Assembly (NCBI GenBank): GCA_001275005.1
Contig: JWZX01002415.1
Coordinates: 1 to 34,267 of the forward strand
Direction of reading: 5' to 3'
DNA: 34,267 nucleotides
DNA from: Chrysochromulina tobinii
Lineage: Eukaryota
In this document: piece after piece, positions 3 to 25,769 of the stretch
How positions within the stretch are numbered: the stretch's first letter is position 1
How the letters are laid out: each line of letters begins with the position of its first letter
Notes under the pieces: model-generated
The model's database searches: none
What the model saw: the letters and a program-made list of their open reading frames with translations, nothing else
Told to the model about the DNA's origin: nothing
Position numbers and translations under genes: made by a program

Positions 3-3000
3 GAACAACGCGCACAAATCGCATGGAATCGCTCGAACGCGGAGTTTTTTCTCGAGGACTCAAAGTGCGGAAAAATGTTACCAAGTGCTGGAAAAGTTTT
101 GACAGGGGGTTTAAAGATTGCTGGGGAATGCGACAATTGCGCTGACGAGCGTCGTGCTGATGCAAACGCACCCATCCCACTCGTCGACTGCGAGGCTGAT
201 TGCACGCTTGCTGGATTGACAGCAAAGGGCGACAGCGAGACTGCAGCAGGGGAGGAGTGCGCCGGAACGAGTGGACAGAGCTCGAGCATCAGTGAGCGCG
301 CCGCGGTCCTTGACACGGCTGCGGAGAAGCACGAGGCGCACGCGGAGCTCAACGGCGACGACATGGAGACCGAGCTCGACGTAAGCGGCGAGGCGGCGGA
401 TCTGCGGGGCGTGCAGACGGATGAGCAGCGCGCGCAGCGACGGCGCGACATTGAGGATCGGCTATGGCGCGACAGGCTCCGCTCAGTCATCGACGCGACG
501 GATGCGTCTGAGGGCGACAAGGACAGGGTTTATGAGTACTGGACCGGCGAATACCAGTTGGAGTTCAATGAGACCGGCGAGAAGTGCACCGACCGGCGAG
601 TGCTTGAGTTGCTGCAGCGCGTGCTTACACCCGAACGGGTGATGCAACTGTCCAAGTCCGTTAAGGAGAAGCTGGCGACCGGGCTCGATGAGTTTAACGT
701 GGTGCTCGTCAAGCAGGGCGGGCCTGAGCTCGCGAAGCTCTTCGCTGAATCCATTGCGATTGAGGTGGCGACTTTTTCCTTTCCGACGAGCTGGACTACG
801 TGGCATGCGACGTTGATTCCGAAGCCCGGCAAGGATAGGTGCAAGCTAAGCGGCTGGCGAGAAATATGGATCCAGGCACACCTGTGGAAGTTGGTGGTCG
901 GCGCCATCTTGCCGGAGTGCGCCGAGGTCATCGCGCACACCGGCCGTGGTGCAACGCGGGTTTCGAGCCCGGGCGCGGCTGCCCGGAACAATCTGCGGCA
1001 CTGCGGGCAAGGTTAGAATTGCACATGCGGCTGCGACAGCCCCTCCACATCTACTTCCAGGACTATAGCGTCTTCTTCCCCTCCATCTCAAGACAACTTG
1101 TCGCCTTCATCCTACACGAGCTCGGCGTCAATACCATCTCGGTCCAGATCTTACTCGAAGTTCAGGATCAAGTTATGGGCGCGTTCAAGACGGCGGGCGG
1201 TCCCACTGAGCTGGCCCCGATGCTGAGAGGCGAGCCCATCGGCGGCGTCGAATCGCCGTTGTTCTCGCTGCCTGTGGCGGCGCTCATACAGCGCGCACTC
1301 GAGAACTACGTGCCGGGCAGCCCACTGCCGGATCGGCGCGAGCTGCGCGTCGCGGCGCTACAGCTTTGGTACGCCGACGACGGCGCACTTGCTGACGCCG
1401 TCGAGGGCATCATTCAGACTGCTGTGGACATCATGATCTTGCTGTCGGAGGATATCCTGGGGCTCAAGGTCGGGCACGACGCGGCCGAGGCGTCCAAGTC
1501 GGCGTCGCTGTCCTGGACATGGGACAAGTCGCGCAACGAGTTCATTCGCGGCGACGGCAACAAGTTCAAAGTACCGCTGGGCAGCTCCCGCGAGGATATC
1601 GAGCTGGCACGGGCAATCTCCTATCGATACCTGGGCATTGACTTCGACCCTGAGCTCGACATGACCAAAGTGGAGGAGTCTTACCGCGCACGGGCCAGCG
1701 CCATCGTCACCATGATCAATAACTTGGGCGGTGGCAGCTGCGATCAGCTGTCGCTTGCAATCAATACGGTCTGGCAAGGTATCTTCATCTTTCCGGCGAG
1801 GACTATTCCGTTCACTGAGAAGGTTGCCAAAGCGCTCGACGCCAAGGCCACCAAGGTCTTATGCAACCACGGCAACCGGCTACGGCACTCCAAGATTGTG
1901 GGAGCCTTTATCTCGGGCAAGTGCGGAGGGCTTGGGCTGCGGCCAGTGCAGTCTACGATGGCGGCGGGCTTCATCGACGAACGGGCGCGCGCGTTTGGCG
2001 GCCGGCGGGGCGAGCCCGCACGCGCGGTGCAGCTCGCGGCGCACTTAGCCTTTGCTGCAAGCCTCGGCTGGGACGGCCCGTCGCACGAGGCACCTACGGC
2101 CTTCGACTTCGTGATCTCGGAGCGTTGGCTACCGTTCTTACGGCTCGACGTGCCGAGCGAGTGCGTGGCGCTGCATCTGGCAAAGCTTGGGCTTAATTGG
2201 CGCGGCACCTGCGTGGCAGAGTGCGCGGCTGATGCACGGCGAGCAGCTGCTCGCGGCGAGCAGACGGCAACCAAGGTGCGGCTCATCAACATGATCAACG
2301 TCACGCCCTCGCTGCGTCTGCACGGGCTCGGAATCAATAGCCTCGACGAGCTACACGCGGGCTGTGGCGAGCTGCTGAGCGCCGAGCGAATCGAGCTCAT
2401 CTACGCGAGGCCTGGATGGGTCTGGAGCGATATTGACAAGGCGCACGTGCGACGGCTGTTGCGCGAGGTTGCCGGCGACGCGCGCGCGATGGTTGCGCTC
2501 GGCGATTGGCGAGAGCGTGGCGTTCGGATGGAGGGCGAGATCGCGCTCACTGAGCTGATCAACGTGGGCAGGCGCAGGGCGCTGAGCATGCTCTCGCGGA
2601 TTGCGGGGATTCTGTGGTGCAAGGACGCTGGCGGTGGTCGGCTCGACGAGCGCTCTTACGAGGTGATCTTTTGCGGCGCTCGGCGGCGCGACGCGGTCTG
2701 GCTCACACGGGCGCAAGTGTTGGAGGGCGCGGCTAGGCGTGACGCGGCGAGACGCGATGCGACGACGGCAGTGAGCTCGTGCGGTGCGTCGGCCGAACAC
2801 GTTGAGCCCAATGAGACTGATGAGGTGATCGCGTGGATGGACGAGGCAGACGTCTCGAGATGGGAGCCGAACACGTTCAACTGCTTCCTGCACCGGCTGC
2901 GAGGGCCGGCGCGTGCTGCTGCGTTTCTCGCCGCGGCCGGACGTTCTGCTGGCATTGAGCCGCGCGCGGCGGCTGCGCGCATCGAGCTCATCGACCTCCT

Positions 3001-6000
3001 GCTGCTCGATTACGCGGCGTTACGCGCCAAGGGCGTCTGCGCCAAAGAGGTCAACTTGCGAGAGGACAGGGCTGCGGATAAGGCCGGCAAGCACGCGGCC
3101 GGCGCGCACACGACGGCGTGGTCAGCAACGTGCGCTGCCGAATTACGACGGGCGAATGGCTTCGAGAATCGCGTGGCGGCGATACGTGTGCTGCCTGCGC
3201 CGCGTGACGCTGACGGGGCGAAGTTCACGGATGCACTCGTCGAGGCCCGGTACGATGGCGTCGCGTGGAACAATGGGCGGAGTAACGGCAGCTTATGGCG
3301 AGGGTGGCGCACAGCGGCGCACGTGCCTTCTCACTTTGAGCGCGCTCCGATGGCGTTCGCGTGCGCCGTCACGCGGAGCTTTATGCGCGATCGCGAGGCG
3401 GAGTGCGCGGACGAGGGGGCGCTCTTTGCGAACGCGTACGGCGAGCCGTTGAAAGTGCGCATTGCGCGCGACGAGGCGGCGCTCATCGCCACGGACATCA
3501 ATTTGGCGCTCATGGGCGAGATTGGCAAGATCGAGGTCGCCTGCGTTGCACGCGGACGCGGCGGTTTCCTTCTCGTCGCGGCTACGGACGGCGCGTTCGT
3601 CAGGGCCAAGACGCTCAGCGCGCGCGAGGCGCTGCGTTACGCTATGGCGAGCGACGAGGAGCGGAGCAGCTTGCGCTTGCGCGCGCCGTACGAGCCGCCG
3701 CAGGTGGCGAGCGGTGTCTTTTATGGTCTGCAGCCGATAGGCAGCGCATGCCCGGTGCTGGAAGGGCGGCGGCTGCCGGCGCACTACGACAACAATCAAG
3801 CCGAACTCGACGGGCTCATCCTCGCGCTGCGCCGGCACGTGGCGCTCCTGACTGGCCTCACGGTTCACGAGGTCCTCCAGCAGAGAGCAGTTGCTGCTCG
3901 ACTGCGAGCTCGTCACCGGGCCTGCGGCGAGTGCTGACGAGGACGCTGACGACGGTGCTGGTCTCTGTGCGGAGGGCAGCAAGAATAGGGCACCCAGTGG
4001 CGCGCGCGACCTGCTCGTCATCATCGACAGCGAGAACATATGCGACTTTTTCGAGCGCGCGTGGCGCTACGGCGACGTGAGACGGCTGCGCGGTGAGACT
4101 TACGGTCTGCGCATGGAGGAGGCGCTGCTGCTACGCAGATGGCTGCAGATGTTGGATGCCGAGGTGCACACGCTGCGCCTGAGCTCGCATTGCGGGTTCA
4201 TTCCCAATGTCTGGGCTGATGCGGTCGCCAACGCGGCGCGGCTGCTCGCTCTCGACGGTGAGCCGCCTCTGGTCGTGCGGCGCACGCTGGCCTTCCTGTG
4301 CAAGGTAGGCGGCGCAGGCATGACATGGGGTCCGTCATCGACGTGCTCTGATCAGGCTGAGGGCGCGAGGTCGGCGGCGGAGCTCGACTCGAGGCTGTCC
4401 AAGAAGGTGCGCGCGCTCGCCGACACTTGCGCGGTGCAGCTGCTCATCAGGGAGGGGGTCAAGGTGTGGCAGATCTTTCGACGGGGGCGCGAGGCGCGGA
4501 CCGAGATCGAGGAGCTCGTCTTTCTGGTCAAGGAGGGGCCGGTTAGTGACGACGAGATGACGGGGGAGGGCCGAGCGGGCAGGGATGCGCGGGCAATGTT
4601 TGAGCAGGCGCAGCGCGATCTTCTCTGCGCAGTCGACGGGACGGCCTCGCCGGAGCTGCTCGAGGGGCGCCTCTTCGCCACTCCCTTCTTTGACTTCGAG
4701 GGCGAGGGCTTGGACGTCACCAAGGGGCAGCAGCTGTTCGATCGGCGGATCCAGGGCGCTCTCTCGATTCAGAGAGGCGGTGGCTACGGTAGCCAAGTGG
4801 AGCTCACGAGGGTGGGCATGCGCCACATCTTGCGGAACTTCGCTCAGAGCGTGCTACCCGAGCTGGGCGAGGGCGTTGCGTCGAGCACGCCGACCGAGGG
4901 CGAGACGCTGCCCCTCTGCATCTGCCCGGCGTGCCACGCTGAGTGTCGTTGCGACTTTTTCCACTTCTTCGAGTGCGCGAGCGGCATCAGCGAGGCAGCC
5001 AGGAGCGCGTGCTGCAGGGCTCTCGAGCAGCACGCGACGATGCTCGACGTGCCGAGCGCGGAGGACGGCGAGGGTGAGGGCGACCTACACCTCGAGCTGG
5101 CATGGGCGAGAGTGGCGCTGCTGGCGAAGCGGCAGCCGGGCGAGCTGGGGAGGTACCGCAGATATTTAGCGGCCAAGGCGCTGTGCGGCGCGTTCGCGAT
5201 GCCCTCGGCGGCTTCGGTCCGAGCAGCGGCGATGGCCGACTGCTGGCAGTGCGAGTCCTCGCGGCAGGAGTCTACGGCGGAGGCCGCGGCCAACGACGAC
5301 GACGACGAGCTGGACGAGCTCGAGTGCGAGGAGGCGCGGCCGCGGAGCGAATTTGACTACATGCGGCTTGCGGAGGCGCGACGCAAGTTCAACAAATGGT
5401 ACGTCGCACGGGCCATCGCGCTCAACACGGTGGTTATCGATCATCTGCGAGCCGAGTTCGGCGATTGGCTGGGGCGCATGAAGCGAGGGCATGCGGGGCT
5501 GCGCGGAGCGTACGGCGGCGACTACCAAAGGCACTATACCGGCGGGCGCGGGCGCGTTCTCGACGAGCAACTTTGCGGCATGTTTTATCCGGCCAATGGC
5601 AGTGCAGGCGTGCCGATGAGCGAAGCTGACTTTGACAAGGGCATCGCGGCGGAGCTGCAGCCGGGGCGTTTTGTGCGCGTCGTGGGCGGCGAGACGCTCG
5701 TGCGTACGCACGGCACGGCTGACGCGCGGCGCGAGGAGCTCCGCAAGAAAAGGGATGAGGGCAAGGAACGGGAGCGGTTGAGAGCTGAAGAGGGCCGGTT
5801 CAAGTATGCTCGGCTCGAGCAGGAGCGAGAGCTTGGCGAGCTGCTCGAGAGGCGCATCGAGCGCGGCTTCGAGGGTCTGTCGGAGCCGGACGAAGAGGAG
5901 AGCGCGCTGCTCGCCGACGGTGGCCGAGAAAGGGCGCTGCGGCTCATGCGCGAAGCGTCGGCGGTGGGCGCGCGCGCGTGGCTGATGCCGGATGGCGGCG

Positions 6001-6890
6001 AGGCGATGAGGGCAGCGCGGGCTATTGGCGGCGCAGACGAGCGCGCAGATGAGGGCGGCGTTGGCGTGGCGCCGGCTCACATGGATGGCGATTTCGACGA
6101 GATGATTGTTGATGATGTGGCAGCGCCTCTACTTCAGGCGACGCAGCTGTATGGCACGGTGAATGAGGACATCGAGGAGGAGTCCGAGGTCGACGAGGCG
6201 GTGCGCCGAGCCCCCTTTTGTCAGGCGACTCAGCAACACGGTGTGTCGCTGGCCGGCGAGGATGCTGTTGACGACGACGACGAGGCGGTGCAACGGTGCG
6301 GCTGGTTTGACGCGCGGCTGGCAGAGAGCACAAAGGGCCTCGCCGCGAGATGGGCGGCGTGCGGACTTGAGATGAATGATGAGCTCACGGGCGAGCTGAG
6401 CGCGGCGAGAGAGGTTGCCGAGTGCATGAGTGAGATGGCGTCTGACGACGTTCATGATGAGCTGATGTGTAGCATGGATGTAGTAGCGGAGGTGCATGCA
6501 CAGGATGCAGAGAGGGAGCAGCAGAGTGAGGGGGTGTCTGTAGGGTGCGTCCGGCATGACGGCGACGGCGTGAGCGGCGGCAACAGCGCTGATGGACGAG
6601 GGCTCGAGGGCGAAGACGGCGGCGACATGGGCTGCGAGAGTGCCGACGGCGTCGAGCAGGGGGCGTCGATGGCGGCGTGCGAGGCGGAGGACAGCGACGA
6701 GGACGAGGCTATGGTGGGCAAAGAGAACGCGTCGATGCAGCGCGCAGAGTACGGCGGCGGCGCGGCTGGGGACATCAAGAAGAGGAAGCACAAGCGGTGC
6801 ATGAGGAAGGGCAAGGGTCATCGGAAACGGTTGGCAATGGCGAGGGCTAATGATCTACGACTGGCGGCGGACGAGGCGAGCGTGAGCTGA
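3..6890 (+). CDS. LINE ORF2-like polyprotein (about 2,300 aa visible, 5'-partial), interrupted by two frameshifts near 938 and 3884
   Basis: The frame of ORF 75..1016 is open from base 3. RT motifs: LIPKPGKD..WREIWI, NAGFEPGRGC, QDYSVFFPSI, RGEPIGGVESP, YADD (1370-1381), YRYLGIDF, GGLGL. RNase H motifs: TDGA (about 3584), NNQAELDG (about 3791), IIDSE (about 4019), SSHCGFIPNVWADAVA (about 4182-4230). Knuckle CPAC..H..C at about 4923-4976. The motifs run in order across ORFs 75..1016, 839..3937 and 3891..6890. Confidence 0.8.
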
Positions 6891-7670: not shown

Positions 7671-10600
7671 TCAAATCCGCAGCTCAAAGCCAGCCTTTCC
7701 TTGCACTGCGTTACGAATGGAGGCCTTCCCTTCGCTGTCAATGCTGTTGTAGTTGAGGTTGCACTCGGTTAATGAGCTTGTGACGGCCACCATGGCCGCC
7801 ACTGACTTTGCTCCCACTGGACCAATGCTGTTGTCCTTGAAGTTGAGCGACGCGAGTTTCGTCTCCTTGTTGCTCTGGATGGCCTCGCAGACTGCGCTTA
7901 CGCCCTCATCCTTGAGGCTGTTAGAGGACAAATCCAGGGCTGTCAGCCCGCCATTGACTCGCAGAGCGTCGGCAATCGCTGTGATGCCCTCTGCAGTGTA
8001 GGTGCCTGTGTCACTGCCGAATGTCAACTGAACTCCGCAGAGTGCGTTGTTGGAGAGGTCCAGGCTTGTCAGCGAGCTATTGACGCGCAGAGCGTCAGCG
8101 ACGGCTGTGATGCCCTCCGCGTTGTAAGTGCCTGTGGGCATGCCCTTGTGAAACCAGACACCACAGAGGCGGGTGTTTGTGAGACTCAACTGCACAGGCT
8201 AAGAAACAAACGGGTCAGGAAAGAGGGGTCATGCGGATGTGGGCTGATAAGGAAACGTAAGGAAACTTACCTTCCTGAGCGAGCTGTTGACACGCAAGGC
8301 GTCGGCGACCGCTTTGGCACCCTTCCCACCAAGGTAGTTGCCCTGCAACCTGCAGGCACAAACACCAGAAAGCACACGGTACGAGTGGGTGCCGAAAGAG
8401 CTCAGGTGCTGGCAACGAGTTGTCCACATTCGGTAAGTACGAGTCGGGGGGGACGTACTCTATTTGAGTCAGCGAGCTATTGATGGCAAGTGCCTTAGCC
8501 AATGCGGTCGCTCCCTTTGGGCCGAAAATGGTTGATGAAACCGAGTTGCTCAGGTCAAGCTTGCTGAGGCTCATACTCTGCTCGATAGCAACTGAGAGCG
8601 CCTCCACACCTTCGTCGCCCAGCTTTATGTTATCAACAAGCGAGAGGTGTGTCAGCGCGCCTGTGACACCGGCCTGTGACAGGTCCGACGCCAGCAGCAT
8701 CGCATCGGGCGGCTTGAGGCTCTGCTTGGAGAAGTCAGCGGTGGTCTGGCTGCGCTGGATGCCGCAGAGCGAGATACCCTTCTGCTTGGCGACTTCAGCG
8801 AGCATCTTGGCGGACTCCGCATCAAGTTGATTGTGCAGGAGGTCAGTCACCTTCAGCGAACCTGTGACAACGGCCTGTGACAGGTCCGACGCCAGCAAGA
8901 TTGCATCGGGTGGCTGGAGGCCATTGCCGAAGAAGTCAGCGTTGGTTTGATCGCGCCGGATGCCGCAGAGCGAGATACCCTTCTGCTTGGCGACCTCAGC
9001 GAGCGTCTTGGCGGACTCTGCATCAAGCCGATTGCCCAGGAGGTTGACCACCGTCAGCGCGCCTATGGCAAGGTCCGACGAAATGAGGATGGCGTCTGCT
9101 GGGCCGAGGCCCAGGTTGGCAAAGTTGGCCTCTTTCTGATCGCGCTTGATGCCGAACAGCATGGTGCCTTTTTCGTTGCCGATCTTGGCGAGCTTTTTCG
9201 CTGACTCGCTGTCCAAGAAGTTTCCGCGGACATTACACTCCGTCAGCGTGCTTGTGACAGCCACCATGGCCGCCACAGACTTTGCTCCCACTGGACCGAT
9301 GCCGATTTGGCCCATGTTGATCGTTGCGAGCTGGGTCTCCTTATTGCTCTGGATGGCCTCGCAGATCGCACCAACTCCCTCATCACCAACGTGGTTGCCA
9401 TAAATAGACAACTTTATCAGCGCACCTGTGACACCAGCCTGTGACAGGTCCGACGCAAGCAGGATCGCATTACCCTCTCTGAGACCCTGGTTGGAGAAGT
9501 CAGCGGTGGTTTGATCGCGCTGAATGCCGCAGAGCGAGATACCCTTCTGCTTGGCAACCTCAGCGAGCATCTTGGCGGACTCCACATCAAGCTGATTGCC
9601 CAGGAGGTTGGCCAACGCCAGCGAGCCTGTGACGCTCGTGCGGAGCGCCTCGGCGATCAACTTGACACCAGCAGGGCCGATGTTCTCGGAGGATGCGTCC
9701 ATAGACATGATCTTGCTGTCCTTGTTGCCGCAGATGGCGGCAAAGATGGCACCCCAGCCCTCGTCCCCGAGCTTGTTGCCCCTGAGCTTGACGGACGTCA
9801 ATGCGCCATTGATGCGCAGAGCCTCCGCAATTGCTGTGATGCCCTCTTCAGTGTAGGTACCGCTGACCGTGCCAAATAGCCCTTTGACCACTCCACAGAG
9901 TGCATTGTTGGAAAGGTCCAGGCTCGTCAGCGCGCCGTCGACGCCAAGAGCTGCTGCGAGCTCCTTGATGCCCGTCATGTCCCTGCCAGAGTCGGTGAGA
10001 TGATTTCCGGACATGTTGATGCTCGTCAGCCCGCCTGTGACAACGGCCTGTGACAGGTCTGACGCCAGAAGGATCGCATCGGGCGGCTTGAGGAATTGGT
10101 CGGAGAAGTCAGCGGTGGAGAAGTCAGCGGTGGTCTGGTCACGCTGGATGCCGCAGAGCGAGATACCCTTCTGCTTGGCGACTTCAGCGAGCATCTTGGC
10201 GGACTCCGCATCAAGTTGATTGAGCAGGAGGTTGGCCACCGTCAGCCCGCCATTAACGCGCATGGCGTCGGCGATTGCAGTGATGCCCTCGGCGGTGTAC
10301 GTTCCCCTCAACGTTCCCCGGCCCCAAATGTCCACACCGCACAGCATGTTTTTGGAGAGGTTGATAGTCGTCAGCGCGCCGTTGACGCCGATCAGCGAGG
10401 CGATCACGATGGCAGAGGCAACACCGAGGCGCTTGTTTGAGAGGTCGAGGGACTCGACTGGCTCGGTGCCCTTGAGCTTCTTGATGGGCAGCGCATAACC
10501 GTCGAGGTTAACCTGAATGCAAAGAGCGCAAGCTGTCAGCTCAGAACAGGTCACAATTTGTGGTCCAAACACGCTGGGCCAGCGTACCTCCGTCAATGCG

Positions 10601-11746
10601 CCATTGATCGGAAGCATCATGGCAAGAAGCCGAGTGGCCACGTGCCCAAGGTGACAATCCCGGAGATCGAGCTCCTTGACGCTACCCTCACGTAGCTGCT
10701 GCACCGGAATGCCGCCGATGGTCCCGCTCGCTGCCAACGCGACGGCAGCCAGGAGCAGCTTCTGTGGCACCTCCCCTTCCTCCGGTGCAATGCATGCACG
10801 CAGGGCCTCTTGACAAAGTACTCTTGACAAAGTATCTCGAACATCATGATCCTCATCATGATCCTCGTCGCCTTCCCCCTCAGCTCCCAGTTCTGCTTGC
10901 CGGACAGCTGCGACGTCCACTGTGAAGCCGTAGCCAAGCAGCTTAGTAAGTCCGGGAAGCATCTGCCCGGCCGCGGCAACCTCCCACGGACAGCCTTCGC
11001 CGATGAGGTACTCCACGTCGATGGCTGTGACATCCTCACGACGCTTTGGCACTGTCGCTGGCCGACCCGCGTCGTCGAGGGGCCGAGCCGCGAGCGGACA
11101 CACACGAGAGCAGAGTTGGTGGCGTGCGCGTAGTTTCCATGCGCTGCTCACCGCCTTCAATGTGCGCAGCAGCGCAGTGGGAGCGTACTCGAGCGCGGCT
11201 CGGATGGCGTCCTCGGAGCCAAGTTGGCTAGCAACGGAGTGACGGAGTGGCGGTGGGGCGACCATGCTCGAAGACGACTCCTTGTCGTCCTCCTGTGAAC
11301 TTTCCTCTGGGGCCCCATCGCCCTCGGGCTCGAAGAGCGGCTCTGCGAGCATCAATGCGTGGGCCGTCTGGGGAATGGTCTCCTCGTTGCGCACGCAGAA
11401 CATCTCACACAACGCATGAACATCCAGGCCGTCAGCACGGCGGAAGAGCTCCGTGGCCAGAACCTTGAAGGCTTCAGAGGCGTAGAGGTAGTTTGCTGCC
11501 TCCATGGCGCACACGAGCTCTTCGAGCGCAACGTCAGCGAGAGGCAAAGAAGCCCGTGCTTGCAAGCTGGGCGATCACCAAAGAGACCGGTGGTGCAGCG
11601 CGCTCCACTCGGAGGACGTTGCCCTCGGTGTGCTCTATCATGTCCTTGAGAAATCCGGCGCGCCTCACCGCATCTCTTGAGAATTGGAGCTCCTCTCCAT
11701 CGGACGTGCAGATCGTGAATGACTCGACCTCGCGAGTGTGCTGCAT
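7671..11746 (-). CDS. Skp1-like + F-box-like + LRR (ribonuclease-inhibitor/NLRC3-like) protein. Exons about 11746-10588, 10512-8459, 8349-8271, 8189-7671, with one frameshift near 11538
   Basis: N-terminal TSDGEELQFSRDAVRRAGFLKDMIEH and EELVCAMEAANYL..ELFRRADGLDVHALCEMFCVRNE resemble Skp1. EDAIRAALEYAPTALLRTLKAVSSAWKLRAR resembles an F-box. Many LTSLDLSxN..G..A.A.AL..N repeats follow. GT-AG introns at 10513-10587 (75 nt), 8350-8458 (109 nt) and 8190-8270 (81 nt) keep the LRR frame. Confidence 0.8.
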
Positions 11747-12100
11747 GATTGTGATCGGCGACGCGGCAGAGTCGAACTGTAGGGCTGTCGAAATGTTATG
11801 CCAGGATTGTGCGAGCGCTGCTCGTTTGCCTCCTGCGTGCGTGCAAAACGAAAAGAGAGGCGCTTCACCACATCTCCACGCTTGCTCGGGGTTGCGGACG
11901 TCCCGGTTCACACCAACTTTGTTGTGAACGACGTTCGTCATAAATGTGAATTAATCGTACTTGGAAGTACGATGTATCCGTGAGTGTGCTTTGGGGGTCA
12001 GGCTCAGAAAGCAGTACGCTAACACGATTGGAAACTTCGTTGTCGCGTCATCCGTCAAAAGTAAAAGACAAAACTTACATGTTAAGTCAAAACACCGGCA

Positions 12101-12139
12101 CACCGGGGGGAGCCGGGAAAAGAGCCGGGACACACACGG
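12101..12139. repeat. Dispersed motif copy 2, with an internal duplication of GAGCCGGGA
   Basis: CACCGGGGGGAGCCGGGA-AAA-GAGCCGGGACACACACGG matches 7387-7413. Confidence 0.75.
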
Positions 12140-12569
12140 AACATAAATAAACGTAACCGGTACTTCTACGTGCTGATGCTGTTCACACAACGCGCCGACG
12201 ACGTCTACATATAACATAAGATTGAGATCATTGTAGATTCAAGACGAGACACGGTAACCAAAAACCACGGAAAGTCATTCGTGTTTTGCGTCCGCTTGCC
12301 CCAGCCGTGCTTGGCACGTTTTTTGTGTCAATATTTCCAGCTCAGAACCCGCGCTCCTGAGGAGGGGCGGAGCGACGAGAGCTCCCCGAGCGTCCGCCAG
12401 CACGCACACAGCACATACACACACACTTTAAACACAGCACTCCGGGACAATCCATGTAAGTTGTAGCTGTTTGCAGAGGCCACGGCCGCCTTGAGCGTGC
12501 AGCCTCGTGCGAGGACCTCGTGCGGCGCCACCACGGCCGACTCTCACGCGCGCATGTGCGTGCTCGCGC

Positions 12570-12653
12570 TCAGAGGCCGCTCAGGATTCGTCAGAGGCCG
12601 CTCAGGATTCGTCAGAGGCCGCTCAGGATTCGTCAGAGGCCGCTCAGGATTCG
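12570..12653. repeat. Four exact copies of a 21-bp unit equal to the last six sense codons plus stop of ubiquilin (RILSGL*)
   Basis: TCAGAGGCCGCTCAGGATTCG starts at 12570, 12591, 12612 and 12633. Confidence 0.95.
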
Positions 12654-13445
12654 CTCGACGGCGGCGTTGACGTTTCCGCCGGTGGCGGTGAGCGCGCGCA
12701 GGTTGGCTTCTGCATCAAGGAAGCCCATGTCATGCAGCTGCGAGTTCTGCGAGGCGAACCTGACGGCAGGGTCGACGGGTGCGACGGGTGCTGCCGGGTT
12801 GCCCAGCATGCCTGTCGCCGCTGGGTTGCCCAGCATGCCTGCAAGCAGGTTGTTGACCATCGCGGGGTCGAAGGCGGCCGGGGCTCCTCCCACTGCCCCA
12901 GGAGGTGATGCCCCAGGAACAGCGGCGGCGGCGCCGGGCGCGGTGGGAGGCGGCGCCGGCAGTGCAAGCGGGCCGCCCATTAGGGCCTGCAGGACCGCCG
13001 GGTTCATGCCGCCCATGCCTGCCATGCCGCCCATGCCGCCGCCGCCCGCAGCACCCATCGCGGCCATCTGTCGTTGCATCATCATCTGGAGGAAGTTCGG
13101 GTCGGCCATCATCGCGCCCATGGCCTGTTGCATCGCCGGGTTGCGCATGATCGTCTGCATCGAGTTCATGAGCGCCTGTGGGTCGGCCCCGCCGGGCTGG
13201 TGCATCGCCATCATAGTCTGCTGCATGGAGGCCATCGCTTGAGGGTCGGTCATCATGGCCTGCATCATCTGCTGCACGCCCGGGTTCTGCATCATCTGCA
13301 TCATCACCTGTGGGTCCACCTGCATGCCGCCAAGGCCACCCATGGCACCGCCCATCATCGGATTGGCGAGCGGCATGCCCCCGGCGCCGCCGGCGCCGCC
13401 ACCCATGCCACCGCCCATCAGCGCCGCCATCATCGCTGGGTTCAT

Positions 13446-13477
<32 letters not shown>

Positions 13478-13478
13478 C

Positions 13479-13509
<31 letters not shown>

Positions 13510-13841
13510 GCGGCGGGACCACCCATGCCACCGGCGCCAAAGGCAGGCGCAGGAGGCGCAGCAGGCGCGGCAGCAGGCGCCCCCGCGGTCGGCACCGCCG
13601 GAGCGCCAGCAGGTGGAGGTCCCTTGACCATGTGAACCGTGTGGCCCTCCTGCACGTTGTACGACGCAACTGTCTCAGGGTCCTTGAGTACTTTTCCCGA
13701 GTAGATGAGGCGCTGCTGGATAGCAGGCACGCCGGAGGCCACCGCCACAACCTCCTTGAGCTCCTTGACCGTCTGTGTGGGTTCCACCTCGATTGCAATC
13801 GTCGAGCCCGACGCTATCTTGATTTGAAGCTTGAGCGGCAT
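12633..13841 (-). CDS. UBQLN: Ubiquilin/Dsk2-like UBL-STI1-UBA protein
   Basis: N-terminal UBL ([25 protein letters not shown]), M/Q-rich STI1-like repeats (MMQNP, MMADPN) and C-terminal UBA ([33 protein letters not shown]). Start taken at the ATG at 13841. Confidence 0.92.
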
Positions 13842-14149
13842 GGATAGGAGGGAGCGAGCGCAGAGAGACGTCTCGTCGGCTTCTGGAAGAAACTCGAGCT
13901 GTTTGTTCAGAACTATATTCACACTGTTGGCATCGCACGAAGGCCCCCCCTCTAATTAGCGAAAACCGGCGCTCCTATCCCCCTCTACGTCAGTCCTCTT
14001 GCGGCCATGTCAGCCGTGGCGCGCATGAAGCGAAGCATGCATGTGCATTTGTGAACAAAAATCCCAAAAGAGATCACACGTCTCGCCGCGGTCGAAAGAT
14101 CGCGACGAGAACCACACGACGCCTGTCTCTGAAGCTTTCTGCAGCCGAG

Positions 14150-19800: not shown

Positions 19801-22800
19801 TCAGGTTGCGTGCGACCGAGCCGTCAGCGAGTCGCTGATCGAGACGCTCTTGGAGCTCAACGTCGGCGCGCAGAAAGTTGTACGGGTCTTCCTGCAGGTA
19901 CAGCTGGCACAGGTTGACCTGTGGATGGATGGAGAAGCCATGTGAAAGGCAATTAAGGCGTATGGTGGCGTATGGAGGCGTATGAAGGCGTATGGAGCAA
20001 TCGGAGGCCATTCGAGACCATTCGAGATCATTCGAGATCATCCGAGATCATCAGAGGTCATCAGTGGCCATCAGAGCCAGTTCGAGGCCATCAGCGGTCA
20101 TCAGAGGCCATCAGAGGGCCACCAGATGCCATCAGAGGTCGTCAGAGGCCAACATAGCCAATTCGAGGCAAATTGCGTACCTGGTCGATCTTGGAGCCCG
20201 GTCGCTCGAGCAGCAGCTTGACAATCTCTGTGTTCTGGTACTCGAGCGCATGCTGGAGCATCTTGCGCAGCGGGCGCGAGTAATCCTCGGTGGACGGCAG
20301 CTCCATGAGCATGCGGCGCGCGAAATCGGGCTGCGGAAGAGGGGAGGAGACAAAGCTCATCAGAGGCACTCCGAGGTACTCCGAGGCACTCCGAGGCACT
20401 CAATGATAGTCCAGGGCCATCCAGGGCCATCCAGGGCCATCCAGGGCCATCCAGGGCCATCCAGGGCCATCCAGGGCCATTCAGGGCCATTCAGGGCACG
20501 CACCTGGTTCCATTTGACGGCAAGCAGCAGCGCGCGTTGCATATGGTCATGCCGACGACTCTCATTCTTCTCAGCGAGCTGCACGACGCGAACGAGCTTG
20601 GTGGTGCTGAGCGATGACGGTGTCGGTGCACTACGCGACGCTTTCATAGACGAACCCTGAGTCGCCGAGCCGTCGAAGAAGGATGCATGCTCGAGGTCAG
20701 CATGCAATGAGGGAGGGCCATCAGCATGCAATCAGTCGCCATCACACCTGCTCGAGGGCGTGATCGCCCGAGCTCTGGTAGAACATGAGGTTGCGGAAGA
20801 GGCAGCGGAGCAGCGCCGTGGCCATCGTCTCATCCGTGGCCTCATCCGCGAGCTGAAGGCAGGAGAGCAGCGTGCCATTTGTCAGAGACCATTAAAGACC
20901 ATCGGAGGCCATCAGAGGCACTCATCAGAGGCCATCAGAAGGCAATCATCAGAGACCTTCAGAGGCAATCCTCAAAGGCAATCATCAGAGGCCACCAGAG
21001 GCACTCGGCGTGCCTGAAAGAAGGAGAGGAGGGTGCCCTCCCGCGCCTCGTTCATCTGACGCAGCGTCTCAAGCTTCGCCTCCGACTCGAGAAAGGCGCC
21101 GTCTTGAACGCTCCCAATCCCGCGCTCGCAGTACTGCCAGAGCGCCGTAGCCGCGCCGCCACTGTCCGCGAGCACGAGGAGGGGCGAGCCCTGCTCGGCC
21201 GACGCAAGCATCATGTCGAGGGTGCCCGGGCCGCCCTGCACTACGAGCAGCACGACGGGCACGCCCTTCATCTTCGCGTACGTGTGCTCGAGATCGGCTC
21301 GCATCTTCACCTGAGGAGGGAGGCAATCAGCATGCACTCAGAGACGCAATCAGCAATGCAATCAGGCACGGGGAGCTCGAGATCGGCTCGCATCTTCACC
21401 TGAGGAGGGAGGCAATCAGTAATGCACTCTGAGACGCAATCAGCAATGCAATCAGGCACGGGGAGCTCGAGATCGGCTCGCATCTTCACCTGAGGAGGGA
21501 GGCAATCAGCATGCACTCTGAGACGCAATCAGTGGCGTCATCAGCGGCGGCACTCGAGAGAGGTCTTCACCTCATGTCCCCAAGCGATGGAACCCTCATC
21601 GTATTGCCGGTGGCCGTCGACGAGGATCTGGTGCGTGTGGTACGGATTGAGGCGCGCTGCGTGCGGGCCGCTCTGGCCGCCGGCGCGATACACGCGCGTG
21701 TCGCCCTTGCAGCCGTGCATGCCCTGTCTGCCCAACACGGCGCCCCAGGGGGCGACCCCGACTAAGGGAACGTCGAGACCATACTTATGTATCGCCTCGC
21801 CCACGAGCTTCATCACGCCGCTGTCCGTGCCGCCGGTGAAGATCCACGCGTTGGTCATCGCGGCCGCCGTCGCGAGGCCGCGGTCGAAGACGCGCTGCAG
21901 GTTGGCGGTGAGGGTCAGGGTCGCTGCAGATCCCGTCACCGAGATGAGCACGTCAGGGCGCGGCAGCCGCCAAAACTTTTCGAGGAAGTGTGAGAGCGCC
22001 GCGCACGACGTCGTGTCTGAGACGCGGATGAAGCGCGCCACGCGTGAGCCCGACAGGAACGAGACCATCCCAAAATCGGACATGGAACCGTCCTTGTTGG
22101 CGAACATCATCGGACCGTACGCCGCGTACATCGCACTGTGCTGCCGGTACCATCGCTGAATCTTGAGGCACGCGCGGTCGCGCCTGGACGCATCCGGCTT
22201 CTCGAGCTTGGCGCTCAGCTCTTTGATGGTCTTCCCACGCTTGACCGCCGCCGCCGCAGTCTTTAGGATCGTGCTCGAGCTCCTCGGAGATTGGCTGGAG
22301 ATGCTGCATCTCGGATTGGCTGACGCCGCAGACGACGCACCGGCAGACGACGCACCGGCAGACGACGCACCGATCGGTGGCCGCGACGGCTGCGGCTGCT
22401 GCAGTGCAGCCGCGGACGCGCACGTCGGCACTGAAGTGGGCGCAGTAGATGGCACGCACGCTGACTTGTCTGAACGAGCCCCGAAGCCGAACGAGGCCGA
22501 ACGAGGCCCGGGAGTGGCAGTAGCAGCAGCGGCGGCAGGAGCGGCCACAGGCTTCGGCGGCTCGGGCTCCGGCTGCCGAGGCTCGTCCGCGAAACGCACG
22601 TACGAGCTGCAGCCCATGGCGCGGCCGAGGGTCCCAGGCAAGAGACGGCTAAATGGTTCTGAAGCCAATGACGAGGCGCAAGCTGGCCTGTGGGCAGGCC
22701 CGGGTGTTGCCGTAGGCGGCGAAGGTGCCGGAAGCGGCTCTGGCTGCAGAGGCTCGTCCGTGAGTCGCTCGTATGGCATGGAACCGATGGCGCGGCCGAG

Positions 22801-22863
22801 GGTGCCAGGCTCGAGACGGCTAAAGGGCTCCAAGTCGTCGCTCCACCTCGCTTTGCGACTCAT
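16862..22863 (-). CDS. TRPM-family cation channel, 9 exons. Introns at about 21311-21570, 20853-21013 (GC-AG), 20690-20747, 20331-20503, 19919-20180, 19346-19489, 18107-18188, 17217-17296
   Basis: SLOG/MHR motifs WRLPRPDVLISVTGSA, AWIFTGGTDSGVMKLVGEA, LNPYHTHQILVDG and VPVVLLVVQGGPGT. Also LFFWAV..LARELW, FLAHRHCQSLMDLWWRG, FYRVPLVKF, and S6/TRP region NVVLVNLLIAMFADTY with IPPPFSL. Joining at the listed splice sites gives a continuous frame. The intron 3 acceptor (GAG) and the start codon are less certain. Confidence 0.88.
19957..20170. repeat. Degenerate about 10-nt intronic repeats (CGTATGGAGG, CATTCGAGAT, CATCAGAGGC types)
   Basis: They fill most of TRPM intron 19919-20180. Confidence 0.85.
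20411..20497. repeat. (CCAGGGCCAT)7 plus variant copies, intronic minisatellite
   Basis: Seven exact 10-mers at 20411-20480 inside intron 20331-20503. Confidence 0.95.
21286..21533. repeat. Tandem 89-90 bp units, each containing a splice acceptor and the first 25 nt of the next exon
   Basis: Minus-strand CCTCCCTCCTCAG|GTGAAGATGCGAGCCGATCTCGAGC occurs three times, with junctions at 21490, 21400 and 21311. Confidence 0.92.
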
Positions 22864-23006
22864 CGGCCAAGACGGCCAACTCCACCGCGAAAGAAAATTC
22901 ACACGTTTTGAAAAAGAGCGTCGTCGTGGCGTAATCGAAAGTACGCGCGCGTTGTGACATGAACAGCACAGCAGCAGCACCTACTTCGGCAGCCAAAACA
23001 CTGACT

Positions 23007-23957
23007 CTACAACCGACTCCGGGCACCGATGCGCGCCCGGCACCATTCGACGACATGCTGCCTCGCCTCCTCCGCGTCGAGTACCTCGTGCAGCAGCCCC
23101 GCAAAGACGCGCATCTCCTTGTCTGGCTGTGGGGACTTGGCCATCAGGGCGTCGCACGCGCTGCGCGGGCAGAGCTCATCGGCGCCCCCGTGCACGAGCA
23201 AGAACGGGAAGCCCCTGCCCGACACGGCGCTTCCAAAGTGGGGCAGGAGCGCCTGGCAGGTAGCCCGCATGTCGAGCAACGCGAGCGCCGTGCGGTTCTG
23301 GATCCAGCCGTGGTAGTTGAGAGGGTCGGCCCACTTATCGGCCGCGCGCTCCGGGAACGAGGTCAGCTCCGAGGGCGACGGAATCGGGGCCGCCGGCCCG
23401 GTGGGCTGCGTCTTCGCCAGCTGGGCGCAAATGGTACGGATGACGCTCGGCATCGCCCGCAACACCGGGATCAGAAACTTGAGCCCAAAAGGAGGGGAGA
23501 TGCTGTCCATCGCAAACCCTGAGAGCACAACCATCGCGGGCCTTGGGAGGGACGGATCTGTCGCCAATCGGTGCGCCACGATCATCGCCATCATGCTGCC
23601 GAGTGAGTGGCCAAGCACGATTAGCGGCAACGAGGCGCGGGCCGTGTCCTGCACCAGCGCGATCACGTCGGACACCGCGCCTTCGACGGTGCCAAAATCG
23701 CCACGCTCGCCTGCACTGTTACCGTGCCCGCTGAAGTCGACGGCGTGGACCTCGACGCCGACGGCACCGAAGGCGGCGGCGAGCTTATCGTAGCGGCCAG
23801 AATGCTCGTGGGTACCGTGGCAAAGGTAGAGCTGCGCCTTGACCTGTTTGGAATTGGGGCAAGCCCAGAAGCGGCGGCAGCGGCGCGCAGTGCCTTCGCC
23901 AACATTCGTGCATGTGGATGGTGACGACGACACCGACCCGGTGACCACCACCTTCAT
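23007..23957 (-). CDS. Alpha/beta hydrolase, monoglyceride lipase/lysophospholipase-like
   Basis: HGTHEHSGRY, AVDFSGHGNSAG, nucleophile GHSLG, LVHGGADELC and GLLHEVL. Start codon uncertain. Confidence 0.88.
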   Translation of the reverse strand: MKVVVTGSVSSSPSTCTNVGEGTARRCRRFWACPNSKQVKAQLYLCHGTHEHSGRYDKLAAAFGAVGVEVHAVDFSGHGNSAGERGDFGTVEGAVSDVIALVQDTARASLPLIVLGHSLGSMMAMIVAHRLATDPSLPRPAMVVLSGFAMDSISPPFGLKFLIPVLRAMPSVIRTICAQLAKTQPTGPAAPIPSPSELTSFPERAADKWADPLNYHGWIQNRTALALLDMRATCQALLPHFGSAVSGRGFPFLLVHGGADELCPRSACDALMAKSPQPDKEMRVFAGLLHEVLDAEEARQHVVEWCRARIGARSRL

Positions 23958-24094
23958 CACCACAAGCGCCCGACGAAGACAACCTGAGCCCTGAGCCCTG
24001 GAGACGAAACTGTCAGTTCAGAGTGCGTAAAGATAAAAACCCAAGTCACCTAAACGTAAATTTGGATAAAGAAAACCACCCCTTGAGCCGCTGG

Positions 24095-24142
24095 GGAGCC
24101 TCCTTGACTTGAACTTGACTTGACTTGACTTGAGGAGCCTCC
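24095..24142. repeat. (TTGAC)n tract flanked by a 9-bp direct repeat, GGAGCCTCC
   Basis: GGAGCCTCC at 24095-24103 and 24134-24142 surrounds TTGACTTGAACTTGACTTGACTTGACTTGA. Confidence 0.85.
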
Positions 24143-24228
24143 GCTCGCTTTTTGTGCAAATTCTTCTCGAGCCACTGCTGCTGCCCGAGGCGGCCGCCAC
24201 GTTTGCGGTCACATCCGTCGTCAGTCCC

Positions 24229-25769
24229 ATGGGTTCCGTCCTCGGCACGTGCTTCGGCTCGTGCCTAGCCTCGTGTGCAACGTCGGCCATATGCAGTCTC
24301 ACGGGCTGCGCATGCATGATGTCGCCCAAATGGGCCAACATGATGTACGTGATCTTCATCACCATGACCGTCATCGTGAGCCTCTCACTCAAGTACTCTG
24401 GCAAGGACCTGAACATCGGCTACGAGGTTGGCATGCCGACGTCGACGCCCTCGGTCTGCGTCCCATCCCCCGCCGAGGCCGCCGTTGTTGTCGCGGGCGT
24501 TGTCATCAAGCCTGCTGTACCTGCCAACAACTGCGACAACCTCGCCTACGATATGTGCAATTCCACGAGCTGCCAGGGCATGTGGGCCGTCTACCGCCTG
24601 ACATTCTCGCTCGCGGGCTTCTTCCTCGTGATGCTGCTGCTCACCTGCACAAAGACGAGCTTCTCCACGACCATGCACCGCGGCTTCTGGTTCGGCAAGG
24701 GCCTTGGGCTCACCGGGGTCGTCATCGCGTGCCTCTTCGCGCCCAACGACCTTTTCGCCGGGTTCGCATGGTTCGCTCGCATCGGCGCGCCCCTGTTCGT
24801 CATCTACCAGGTGGTCTGTTTCATCGATTTCGGATACACCTTCAGCACGAAAGTCGTTGAGAAGGACGAACGCGAGGACAACTTCTTCGGCCTCACCAAC
24901 CACGGTGGCAAGTACAAGGGCTTCATGCTGTTTGTACGCGCGCGCGCCGCCCATTCCCAGCCCTCGATCGGTGCCCCCCTTCTGCCCGCTCCTTGGGCGC
25001 TCCATCGTGGGCGCACCCTCGCCACGCCGCCGACGCCGACGTACGTGTGCTGTGTGCTGCGCGCTGGCTGCAGGTGTGCTTTCTCCTTGTGGTCGCCGCG
25101 TTCGCGGCGACCGCGGTGCTCTACAGCGTCTACCCGAGGGAATGCGCATTCAACAACGCGGCCGTCACGACGTCGCTCCTTTTCTCGCTGATCAACTTCG
25201 GCATCACGATCTCGCCCATCGCTGAGCATGGCTCCATCCTTGTCGCCTGCCTCGTCTGGTGCTACTCGACGTACCTCGCCTTCTCGGCCATCTCCGCCTT
25301 CCCAGAGCCGAGCTGCAATCCCTATGTGGAGACCAAGGAGGGGGACACTCTCTGGCTGGTCATCTCGGTGGCGATCGCGGCCGCCTCGATCGCCTGGATG
25401 GCCTACCAAAACGGCGCGCGCCAGATGGGTGGCAACGCTATGGATGGCAAGGAGCAGGTGCCCACGACAGCGTCCAACGACACTGTCGCTGTCGTGGTGC
25501 GCGTGGATCCTATCGTCGGCAGCGGCGCCGCCGAAGCGGCCACGGCAGACTCGTACGTCTCGTACCACCTCGTCATGTTCCTCGCGTCGCTGTACGCCGC
25601 CATGCTCGTCACCGATTGGGGCGCGGAATCGACCACCACAGGCTCTACGAGGGAAAACCTAGGCTACCCATCGGCCTGGCTCTTGCTAGGATCCATGTGG
25701 GTTTGCCAGCTCATCTACTTTTGGACCCTGATCGCGGCGCGCGCGTGCCCGGACCGAGACTTCTCCTAA
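24229..25769 (+). CDS. SERINC: Serine incorporator (Serinc/TMS1) family membrane protein; exons 24229-24933 and 25074-25769
   Basis: MG start with Cys-rich N-terminus, CQGMWAVYRLTFSLAGFF, MHRGFWFGK, IDFGY, YHLVMFLASLYAAMLVTDW and C-terminal WTLIAA..PDRDFS. A 140-nt GT-AG intron joins the two ORFs in frame. Confidence 0.93.

What the first reader, a model, noticed from the sequence alone, without database searches (positions are those of the whole stretch)
11113..11746. Skp1-like domain and F-box in one polypeptide ahead of an LRR array
Seen: both halves of a Skp1-like sequence (about 11730-11380), an acidic linker, an F-box-like motif (about 11223-11113) and then many LRRs. Known: in SCF ligases, Skp1 and the F-box protein are separate chains that bind each other. 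Inference: this may be a self-contained adaptor-receptor that docks directly on Cullin1, or a decoy. The Skp1 C-terminal half, F-box and LRRs share one ORF; only the POZ half depends on correcting the frameshift near 11538.
Basis: partly seen in the sequence, partly recalled or inferred. Interest (0 to 1): 0.75.

Follow-up and report, generated by a model that had tools for sequence, protein, structure and literature searches.

The report
Single-chain Skp1–F-box adaptor family of haptophytes
The alga Chrysochromulina and many unnamed relatives carry a gene family that joins a Skp1 adaptor domain and an F-box-like motif, normally two separate proteins, in one chain ahead of interchangeable binding domains, which likely makes ready-assembled receptors for the cell's protein-destruction machinery; the copy in this window has lost 11 bases, which cuts off the front half of Skp1.

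Summary
The fusion is real. The gene is Chrysochromulina tobinii KOO29439 (annotated 'nlrc3'). In C. parva and lake-type metagenome alleles, one ORF holds a full-length Skp1 domain, a linker, an F-box-like motif and RI-type LRRs. The Skp1 assignment is strong: family profile E 1e-22 against PDB Skp1, model Z 14. The F-box assignment is moderate: no direct profile hit for this subfamily, but the model's best matches among 48,161 chains are F-boxes and distant members pass Pfam's F-box cut-off. The window's 'frameshift' is a real 11-nt deletion at 11555/11551, found in DNA and RNA contigs, so this allele likely makes a short POZ peptide and a POZ-less LRR protein. The module defines a large family (69 further clusters at 50% identity cover both parts) with LRR, BspA-LRR, ankyrin, HEAT or E2/UEV tails. 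Skp1:F-box-facing positions are nearly invariant; likely cullin-facing ones are not. Best reading: self-paired receptors that dock on a cullin as BTB proteins do; cullin binding is untested. Ten literature searches found only an engineered Skp1-TIR1 fusion. New variant of a known kind; interest 0.72.

The parts
11555..11746 (-). Skp1 N-terminal (POZ) half, residues 1-64 of the intact protein; ATG at 11746. In this allele the frame runs on to a stop at 11536-11534 (70-aa peptide).
   Evidence: Translation; Pfam Skp1_POZ E 0.014, 16 bits, cut-off 21.9; matches residues 1-64 of intact alleles
11551..11555 (-). Site of a net 11-nt deletion relative to intact alleles; shifts the frame
   Evidence: DNA alignment to L001/L002; 4 nt stand where intact proteins have 5 residues; confirmed in DNA and RNA contigs
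11323..11550 (-). Skp1 C-terminal half (intact residues 70-145), the F-box-binding helices; the internal ATG at 11505 is the annotated start of KOO29439
   Evidence: Profile to PDB Skp1 E 1e-22; VIA Z 14.2, model 7-143 on Skp1 1-160; E139 invariant in 118 of 118 rows
11227..11322 (-). Acidic, Ser-rich linker (intact residues 146-177); low confidence in the model; a few residues long in some relatives, and holding ankyrin repeats in P0085
11101..11226 (-). F-box-like three-helix motif (intact residues 178-219)
   Evidence: Helices 182-189, 194-200, 205-219; best structural match an F-box, Z 5.2, rmsd 1.7 over 43 residues; profile bridge to Pfam-positive F-boxes
10702..11100 (-). Conserved middle domain (intact residues 220-352), confidently folded, no named match; possibly degenerate LRR-like cap (inference)
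   Evidence: pLDDT mostly over 90 apart from an acidic loop; conserved in the LRR-bearing subfamilies; barely tested
7671..10701 (-). RI/NLRC3-type LRR array over four exons, ending at TGA 7673-7671
   Evidence: Pfam LRR_6 and LRR_1; exon mapping of P0004
10513..10587 (-). Intron 1 (75 nt, GT-AG, in frame and stop-free)
   Evidence: from the gene model, no RNA contig crosses it
8350..8458 (-). Intron 2 (109 nt, GT-AG)
   Evidence: gene model
8145..8270 (-). Intron 3 as annotated (126 nt); an earlier acceptor at 8190 would keep one more LRR strand in frame (inference)
11822..11880 (-). Likely transcript 5' end region
   Evidence: RNA-library contigs of X11, X12, X13, X14 end at 11871, 11827, 11822, 11880 while DNA contig X9 goes on; a weak hint

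Best explanation
The intact gene encodes a full-length Skp1 domain, an F-box-like motif and an LRR array in one chain; the F-box is predicted to pack on the chain's own Skp1, so the protein likely acts as a ready-assembled substrate receptor that would dock on a Cul1-type cullin without the shared Skp1, as BTB proteins do on Cul3. Shown: the one-chain architecture, the Skp1 homology, the family and its swapped tails (RI-LRR, BspA-LRR, ankyrin, HEAT, E2/UEV). Predicted: the F-box fold and the internal Skp1:F-box pairing. Inferred: cullin docking, substrate binding by the tail, ubiquitylation. The C. tobinii allele in this window carries a recent 11-nt deletion. It likely yields a 70-residue POZ peptide and, by restart at ATG 11505, a 1174-residue protein without the cullin-binding half of Skp1, so it is likely a loss-of-function allele of one member of a redundant family.
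For: One chain: 9 stored proteins of the two closest clusters start at the same Met and run in frame (P0003, P0020-25, P0027, P0029); L001 and L002 at DNA level. Skp1: 29 of 30 PDB hits of profile A1; E 1.1e-22 with A2; all 50 VIA rows Skp1, top Z 14.2, rmsd 2.6, 135 aligned; 13 of 83 family members pass a Pfam Skp1 or Skp1_POZ cut-off. F-box: 16 of 50 VIA rows and 5 of the top 6 are F-box chains, matched on model residues 1-63 (chain identity read from titles and ranges); 8 of 83 members hit F-box or F-box-like at E 0.02 or better, 2 above cut-off; the subfamily profile A3 finds those two at 26 and 45 bits, 0 of 18 reversed controls. Pairing: model pLDDT 89.5, pTM 0.86 over 407 residues; split halves scored 0.59 against best control 0.26, runs agreeing in at least 90% of contacts, partner pLDDT at least 79: weak support; that mark was reached by 51 of 78 solved complexes and 2 of 108 mismatches, but at 0.60 or under by only 5 of 78 and by all 4 passing mismatches (of 180), and likeness to solved Skp1:F-box complexes may drive it. 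Near-invariant residues on both halves (E139 118, L91 114, K201 116, W207 113, L197 112, L200 111 of 118). Receptor logic: constant module, variable repeat tails, and four UQ_con fusions, one of them in a 16-member cluster. Precedent: an engineered Skp1-TIR1 fusion depletes targets in fission yeast (PMC8229956, passages). Window versus L001 over the module and middle domain: 4 synonymous, 0 non-synonymous changes, so the deletion is recent.
Against: No test of cullin binding. Positions that I recall as Cul1-facing are poorly kept: the Skp1 Asn-Tyr pair is intact in the window copy but Asn plus aromatic in only 23 of 118 rows, and the F-box proline position holds Pro in 1 of 118; the acidic residue two places on is kept in 107 of 118. 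The F-box profile of the close subfamily finds no F-box among PDB sequences, Foldseek gives no significant hit for the F-box model, and VIA Z of 5 is in the range that common helical arrangements reach. No member passes both Pfam cut-offs. Some relatives have only about five residues of linker, which may force pairing between two chains. Three of four E2-type tails lack the catalytic Cys (motif recalled). No RNA contig links the F-box exon to the LRR exons.
Confidence: 0.55

Rival explanations
1. Cullin-independent module: Skp1 and F-box have closed on each other into a stable folding unit or scaffold that no longer binds a cullin; the tails do the work (recognition, or ubiquitin binding in the UEV forms).
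For: Conservation is highest where Skp1 and F-box would face each other and lower at recalled cullin-facing positions: F-box Pro 1 of 118, Asn plus aromatic 23 of 118. The Skp1 domain is only 12-19% identical to solved Skp1. Skp1 has a cullin-free role in yeast CBF3 (entries listed; role recalled). A POZ-less allele is tolerated and transcribed in culture.
Against: The POZ half, which binds Cul1 in SCF (PMC4403949, passage), is kept across the family with its fold intact; the tails are typical receptor domains; E2 fusions tie the module to ubiquitin transfer.
Confidence: 0.25
2. Decoy or inhibitor: the chain binds Cul1 or substrates but does not lead to degradation, titrating cullin or shielding targets.
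For: Overexpressed engineered Skp1-AtTIR1 inhibits yeast growth (PMC8229956, passage); three of four E2-type tails are catalytically altered; the window allele would bind substrate without a cullin arm.
Against: A large, diverse family with many different tails fits receptors better than one inhibitor; RNA contig depth is low (2-6.5; a poor measure of level).
Confidence: 0.1
3. An ordinary F-box-LRR protein that binds free canonical Skp1; the fused Skp1-like domain is a passenger or a dimerisation domain.
For: F-box plus LRR is the common FBXL layout (PMC7729025, passages); the window allele without POZ is still transcribed.
Against: The fused Skp1 keeps all its F-box-binding helices to the C-terminal end with near-invariant residues; the F-box carries family-specific invariant residues (K201); the model packs the parts as one rigid unit.
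Confidence: 0.07
4. The three-helix motif is not an F-box; the protein is a Skp1-like BTB adaptor with a 3-box/BACK-like helical extension acting with Cul3.
For: No direct sequence hit to solved F-boxes; low Z.
Against: The top 60 PDB rows of profile A2 list Skp1 and LRR proteins, no BTB protein; structural hits for the motif are F-boxes, and distant members pass Pfam F-box.
Confidence: 0.03

Closest known systems
SCF (CRL1) Skp1 adaptor plus FBXL-type F-box/LRR receptor (Skp1-Skp2, ASK1-TIR1)
   Same: Full Skp1 fold over residues 1-160; an F-box-like three-helix motif matching Fbw7, Skp2 and FBXL2 F-boxes; LRR tail.
   Different: One chain instead of two; Skp1 identity only 12-19%; F-box proline absent; RI/NLRC3-type LRRs after a 133-residue middle domain; tails also ankyrin, HEAT, BspA-LRR, E2/UEV.
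BTB adaptors of Cul3 (KLHL, SPOP, Keap1)
   Same: Adaptor and receptor function in one polypeptide with a Skp1/BTB/POZ fold at the front (PMC4403949, section 8): the best model of how it works.
   Different: The front domain is Skp1 by profile and structure, with the F-box-binding C-terminal helices and its own F-box; no BTB protein among the top 60 rows.
Engineered Skp1-TIR1 fusion of the fission-yeast i-AID degron system
   Same: Skp1 fused to an F-box-LRR protein in one chain, active in degradation (PMC8229956, passages).
   Different: Artificial, with canonical Skp1; here natural, divergent and expanded into a family.
Plant FBL11 (At2g36370), BTB/POZ protein with F-box
   Same: A POZ-fold domain and an F-box in one natural chain (PMC8882727, passages; its LRRs are recalled).
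   Different: BTB rather than Skp1; function inferred only; not compared by sequence here.
Lineage-specific Skp1 paralogues with lineage-specific cullins in trypanosomes
   Same: Divergent Skp1 copies that work with their own cullins and LRR receptors (10.1101/2023.07.24.550360, passages).
   Different: There Skp1 paralogue and receptor are separate proteins; the passages seen mention no fusion and no haptophytes.

Membership tests
Skp1 family (PF03931 + PF01466) | Sequence homology over both halves | tested here: met
   Profile A2 to PDB Skp1 E 1.1e-22, profile 14-142 on chain 3-143. The window copy alone stays under Pfam cut-offs; 13 of 83 relatives pass one.
Skp1 family (PF03931 + PF01466) | Skp1 fold including the C-terminal F-box-binding helices | tested here: met
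   VIA Z 14.2, rmsd 2.6, 135 aligned, model 7-143 on Skp1 1-160; Foldseek probability 1.0. Model of intact allele P0029.
Skp1 family (PF03931 + PF01466) | Free-standing adaptor shared by many F-box proteins | tested here: not met
   Fused to linker, F-box-like motif and tail in all full-length members.
Skp1 family (PF03931 + PF01466) | Binds Cul1 | not testable with these tools
   No haptophyte cullin sequence was obtained. Recalled Cul1-facing Asn-Tyr pair intact in this copy, Asn plus aromatic in 23 of 118 rows.
F-box (PF00646 / PF12937) | Profile match above cut-off | tested here: inconclusive
   None for the window copy or for profile A3 against PDB sequences; 2 of 83 relatives pass, 8 of 83 hit at E 0.02 or better, and A3 links to them.
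F-box (PF00646 / PF12937) | Three-helix F-box fold | tested here: met
   Best match 5ibk_E, Z 5.2, rmsd 1.7, 43 aligned; 1fs1_C rmsd 2.2 over 41 of 41; 16 of 50 rows F-box chains. Z is low because the motif is short.
F-box (PF00646 / PF12937) | Conserved N-terminal proline (recalled as needed for Cul1 contact) | tested here: not met
   Pro in 1 of 118 rows at intact position 181; acidic residue at 183 in at least 107 of 118.
F-box (PF00646 / PF12937) | Binds a Skp1 domain | tested here: inconclusive
   Weak support for binding its own Skp1-like domain: 0.59 against best control 0.26; whole-chain pTM 0.86.
BTB-Cul3 adaptors | BTB domain (not Skp1) with 3-box/BACK | tested here: inconclusive
   No BTB Pfam hit in 85 proteins and no BTB protein among the 60 rows shown; Skp1 fits far better. 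BTB proteins do appear as fold relatives in the viral library.
NLRC3 / NLR receptors (database name) | NACHT domain before the LRRs | tested here: not met
   No NACHT hit in P0001 or relatives; matches to NLR proteins cover the LRR part only.

The most novel reading that the evidence does not exclude
Haptophytes have turned SCF's two-part adaptor into a portable one-chain cassette, a third class of self-contained cullin receptors beside BTB proteins. The cassette has its own fast-changing cullin face, probably matched to a lineage-specific cullin, is shuffled onto LRR, HEAT, ankyrin and even E2 domains, and feeds a very large, recombining LRR repertoire that serves as a degradation-based recognition system, for example against giant viruses.
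Probability: 0.2. Interest if true: 0.88.

Novelty: new variant of a known kind. Interest (0 to 1): 0.72.

Why it matters
SCF ligases depend on many F-box proteins sharing one Skp1. A natural family in which each receptor carries a private Skp1 removes that competition and lets the Skp1:F-box and Skp1:cullin surfaces evolve separately, which is what the conservation pattern suggests. It offers a natural test of how BTB-like one-chain adaptors can arise from SCF parts, and of which surface residues a cullin really needs. The E2/UEV fusions put a conjugating-enzyme fold at the place of the substrate domain, a layout I did not find in print. The family hides in databases under 'nlrc3', 'RanGAP' and 'hypothetical protein', so haptophyte ubiquitin-ligase inventories are likely to miss it.

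Tried and rejected
Sequencing or assembly error at the break: rejected. Small intron that restores the frame: no RNA contig skips bases there, and intact alleles differ by 11 extra bases. Single-sequence searches: window pieces give no PDB Skp1 or F-box hit and only a sub-cut-off Pfam POZ hit. F-box-only profile against PDB sequences: two chance Cdc25 rows. Foldseek with the F-box-plus-middle model: nothing at E 0.001; 4 of 19 weak rows are F-box complexes. The middle domain has no listed structural match but was barely tested and was not folded alone. Viral origin: no relative in viral contigs for A1 or P0189; alignments A2 and A4 could not be used there; viral fold hits are Skp1 or BTB proteins aligned over about one domain. 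ESM Atlas: no usable hit for P0003 1-220; a second query got no answer. No whole genome was held, so the family was not counted in this genome and no cullin was found. Joining of N-terminal and LRR exons in RNA: no contig covers 10554-10707 in the four runs, so this stays open. A tree of the Skp1-like domain (FastTree, 58 family rows of 114 plus two canonical Skp1; P0191 left out) groups the E2 forms and the BspA forms, but deep nodes are weak and two outgroups cannot show a single origin; the first tree script failed. PF27087, precomputed on many members, is not in the Pfam copy here; it is absent from P0008-P0010 and P0012-P0019, which hold the whole module but almost no LRR, so it likely marks the LRR part. 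The paper on the F-box proline (PMC2779159) is not held, and a search for the Skp1 interface residues gave nothing usable, so those residue roles are recalled.

Full report
Identity of the gene. The finding lies at the 5' end of a minus-strand gene running from ATG 11746 to a stop at 7673-7671. The window's own annotated product is P0004, 1174 aa, KOO29439.1 'protein nlrc3' of Chrysochromulina tobinii, on a contig of 34,267 bases; the species is a haptophyte. P0004 starts at an internal ATG (11505) and maps to four exons. The 'nlrc3' name rests on the LRRs; no NACHT domain was found.

The break. The frame from 11746 gives 70 residues and stops at 11536-11534; the frame that holds the rest of Skp1, the F-box-like motif and the LRRs is open from 11574. 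Nine stored proteins of the two closest clusters carry both parts in frame, among them the C. parva gene model P0027 (1258 aa), whose residues 85-1258 equal P0004 at 1174 of 1174 positions. Of five near-identical DNA loci, two (L001, L002) have 11 more bases at window 11555/11551 and three (L003-L005) equal the window. DNA run X9 (contig 10480-12100, depth 46, no differences; may be the source of the window) and RNA-library contigs of 4 of the 6 runs laid (X11, X12, X14, X16) cross the site unchanged; X13 and X15 do not cover it. RNA contigs cover much of 10746-11880 at depth 2-6.5, none lies in the intergenic stretch 11940-12324 in the four runs, and four end at 11822-11880. So the gene is probably transcribed, and the deletion is a real property of this strain. 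These runs are mixed cultures, probably of the same strain, so they do not speak for the species. Window and L001 differ by 4 synonymous and no non-synonymous changes over the module and middle domain: the lesion is recent.

Skp1. Alone, the window pieces score weakly (Skp1_POZ E 0.014; no PDB hit). A profile of 11 N-terminal regions hits Skp1 in 29 of 30 PDB rows (best E 1.1e-5); a profile of 118 family members reaches E 1.1e-22 over nearly the whole of Skp1. An AlphaFold2 model of the intact allele P0029 (pLDDT 89.5, pTM 0.86) matches Skp1 by Foldseek (probability 1.0) and by VIA-align (Z 14.2, rmsd 2.6, 135 residues, model 7-143 on Skp1 1-160; all 50 rows Skp1). The domain includes the C-terminal helices that grip an F-box.

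F-box. The evidence is weaker and mixed. Against: no Pfam hit for the window copy, no F-box among PDB sequences for a 31-row profile of the close subfamily, no significant Foldseek hit. For: in a search of 48,161 chains with a model of window 11232-10591 (pLDDT 90.3), the best match is an F-box (5ibk_E, Z 5.2, rmsd 1.7, 43 residues); 5 of the top 6 and 16 of 50 rows are F-box chains by title and range. Z of 5 is low, but the enrichment is plain. Among 83 family members scanned (85 proteins less two canonical Skp1), 8 hit F-box or F-box-like at E 0.02 or better and 2 pass the cut-off (P0218, P0227); 13 pass a Skp1 cut-off; none passes both, though P0121 misses each by about one bit or less. The subfamily profile, built without those Pfam-positive rows, finds all 16 family proteins tested, including P0218 (26 bits) and P0227 (45 bits), and neither the two canonical Skp1 nor any of 18 reversed controls.

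Pairing. Folded as two chains, residues 6-146 and 176-222 scored 0.59 against a best control of 0.26; runs agreed in at least 90% of contacts, partner pLDDT at least 79. The tool calls this weak support: its mark was reached by 51 of 78 solved complexes and 2 of 108 mismatches, but at 0.60 or under by only 5 of the 78 and by all 4 mismatches that passed (of 180); and a pass may reflect likeness to solved Skp1:F-box complexes. In the 118-row alignment the best-kept positions lie in the C-terminal Skp1 helices and the F-box (E139 118, L91 114, L120 107, K201 116, W207 113, L197 112, L200 111). Positions that I recall as facing Cul1 are looser: the Skp1 Asn-Tyr pair is intact in this copy but Asn plus aromatic in 23 of 118, and the F-box proline position holds Pro in 1 of 118.

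The family. Profile A1 found 48 proteins of 434 residues or more, 43 with precomputed LRR families, and 315 representatives at 50% identity (107 at E 1e-10 or better; the tail includes ordinary Skp1); 69 of the 143 new ones among the best 150 cover both Skp1 and F-box parts. Tails differ: LRR_6 above cut-off in 11 of 83, BspA-type LRR_5 in 5, ankyrin behind the module in 2 (and inside the linker of P0085), HEAT in 3 (weak in 5 more), and UQ_con in 4; many others are short metagenome fragments. One E2 fusion has a 16-member cluster. Only P0197 keeps a Cys at the catalytic position (motif recalled). Named members come only from C. tobinii (KOO29439, KOO33077, KOO27707) and C. parva (three full modules: P0027, P0065, P0253) among the 25 clusters looked up. 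L006 has the same layout with an intron. The wider taxonomic range is unknown; 'haptophyte' for unnamed members is an inference. The LRR array varies between alleles: L001 and P0003 carry a 65-residue LRR block that the window and C. parva lack, and LRR segments recruit DNA contigs to summed depths near 5,000 against 46 for the unique part, so related LRRs are very numerous in that sample.

How it most likely works. In SCF the N-terminal part of Skp1 binds Cul1 and its C-terminal part binds the F-box (PMC4403949, passages); BTB proteins do both jobs in one chain for Cul3 (same paper, section 8). Here Skp1 and F-box are in one chain and likely paired, so the protein would reach the cullin ready-assembled, with the tail choosing the substrate. 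An engineered Skp1-TIR1 fusion works this way in fission yeast (PMC8229956, passages). I put this at 0.55; a cullin-free scaffold at 0.25; a decoy at 0.10. The window allele lacks the POZ half on its LRR-bearing product and is likely non-functional as a receptor.

Novelty. Ten full-text searches (listings seen, and passages of eleven papers) found no natural Skp1-F-box fusion family; the library lacks most subscription journals, and no supplements were read, so domain-architecture tables could hold it. The nearest natural cases seen are plant FBL11 (BTB with F-box; PMC8882727, passages) and trypanosome Skp1 paralogues with their own cullins (10.1101/2023.07.24.550360, passages). Unchecked notes of this scan describe other protist Skp1 fusions, so fusing SCF parts may recur in protists; that lowers uniqueness somewhat and was not tested. 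Verdict: observation confirmed, interpretation partly supported, new variant of a known kind, interest 0.72.

Noticed in passing
window 839-3937 and 3852-6890 (+): Two overlapping ORFs of about 1,000 codons with no Pfam hit. Their translations show motifs that I recall from the reverse-transcriptase C-terminus and RNase H of non-LTR retrotransposons; probably a divergent, broken LINE-like element.
   Followed up: partly
window 12633-13955 (-): Ubiquilin/Dsk2-type gene (ubiquitin-like domain, Met/Gly/Gln-rich middle, UBA) directly upstream on the same strand; the order is kept in L001 and L002. Four 21-nt tandem copies span its stop codon (12570-12653).
   Followed up: partly
window 30131-31843 (+): PUB domain followed by a GH85 endo-beta-N-acetylglucosaminidase domain in one ORF: a p97-binding domain on an ENGase rather than on PNGase, where I recall it usually sits.
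   Followed up: no
window 21541-22980 (-): SLOG-in-TRPM (LSDAT) domain, E 9.7e-33: a TRPM-like channel or free SLOG protein in a haptophyte.
   Followed up: no
window 23007-24017 (-), 24124-25769 (+), 28095-29144 (+): Serine aminopeptidase S33 hydrolase; Serinc gene found in two overlapping frames (intron or frameshift); LSM protein with a Pro/Gly-rich tail, like SmB.
   Followed up: no
window 8652-10259 (-): Four copies of a roughly 200-nt LRR super-repeat, 74-86% alike, and a 65-residue block present in L001/P0003 but absent here: signs of unequal recombination in the array.
   Followed up: partly
P0189, P0191, P0181, P0197: Skp1-F-box module fused to a ubiquitin-conjugating-enzyme domain; three lack the catalytic Cys, P0197 keeps it. 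P0104 has a PFU ubiquitin-binding domain in front of the module.
   Followed up: partly
P0085 / P0266 (C. tobinii KOO27707): Family member with ankyrin repeats inserted in the linker between Skp1 and F-box, and a long insert inside the Skp1 domain.
   Followed up: partly
window 19956-21532: Runs of 10-nt repeats and a 90-nt tandem repeat, probably intronic or intergenic.
   Followed up: no
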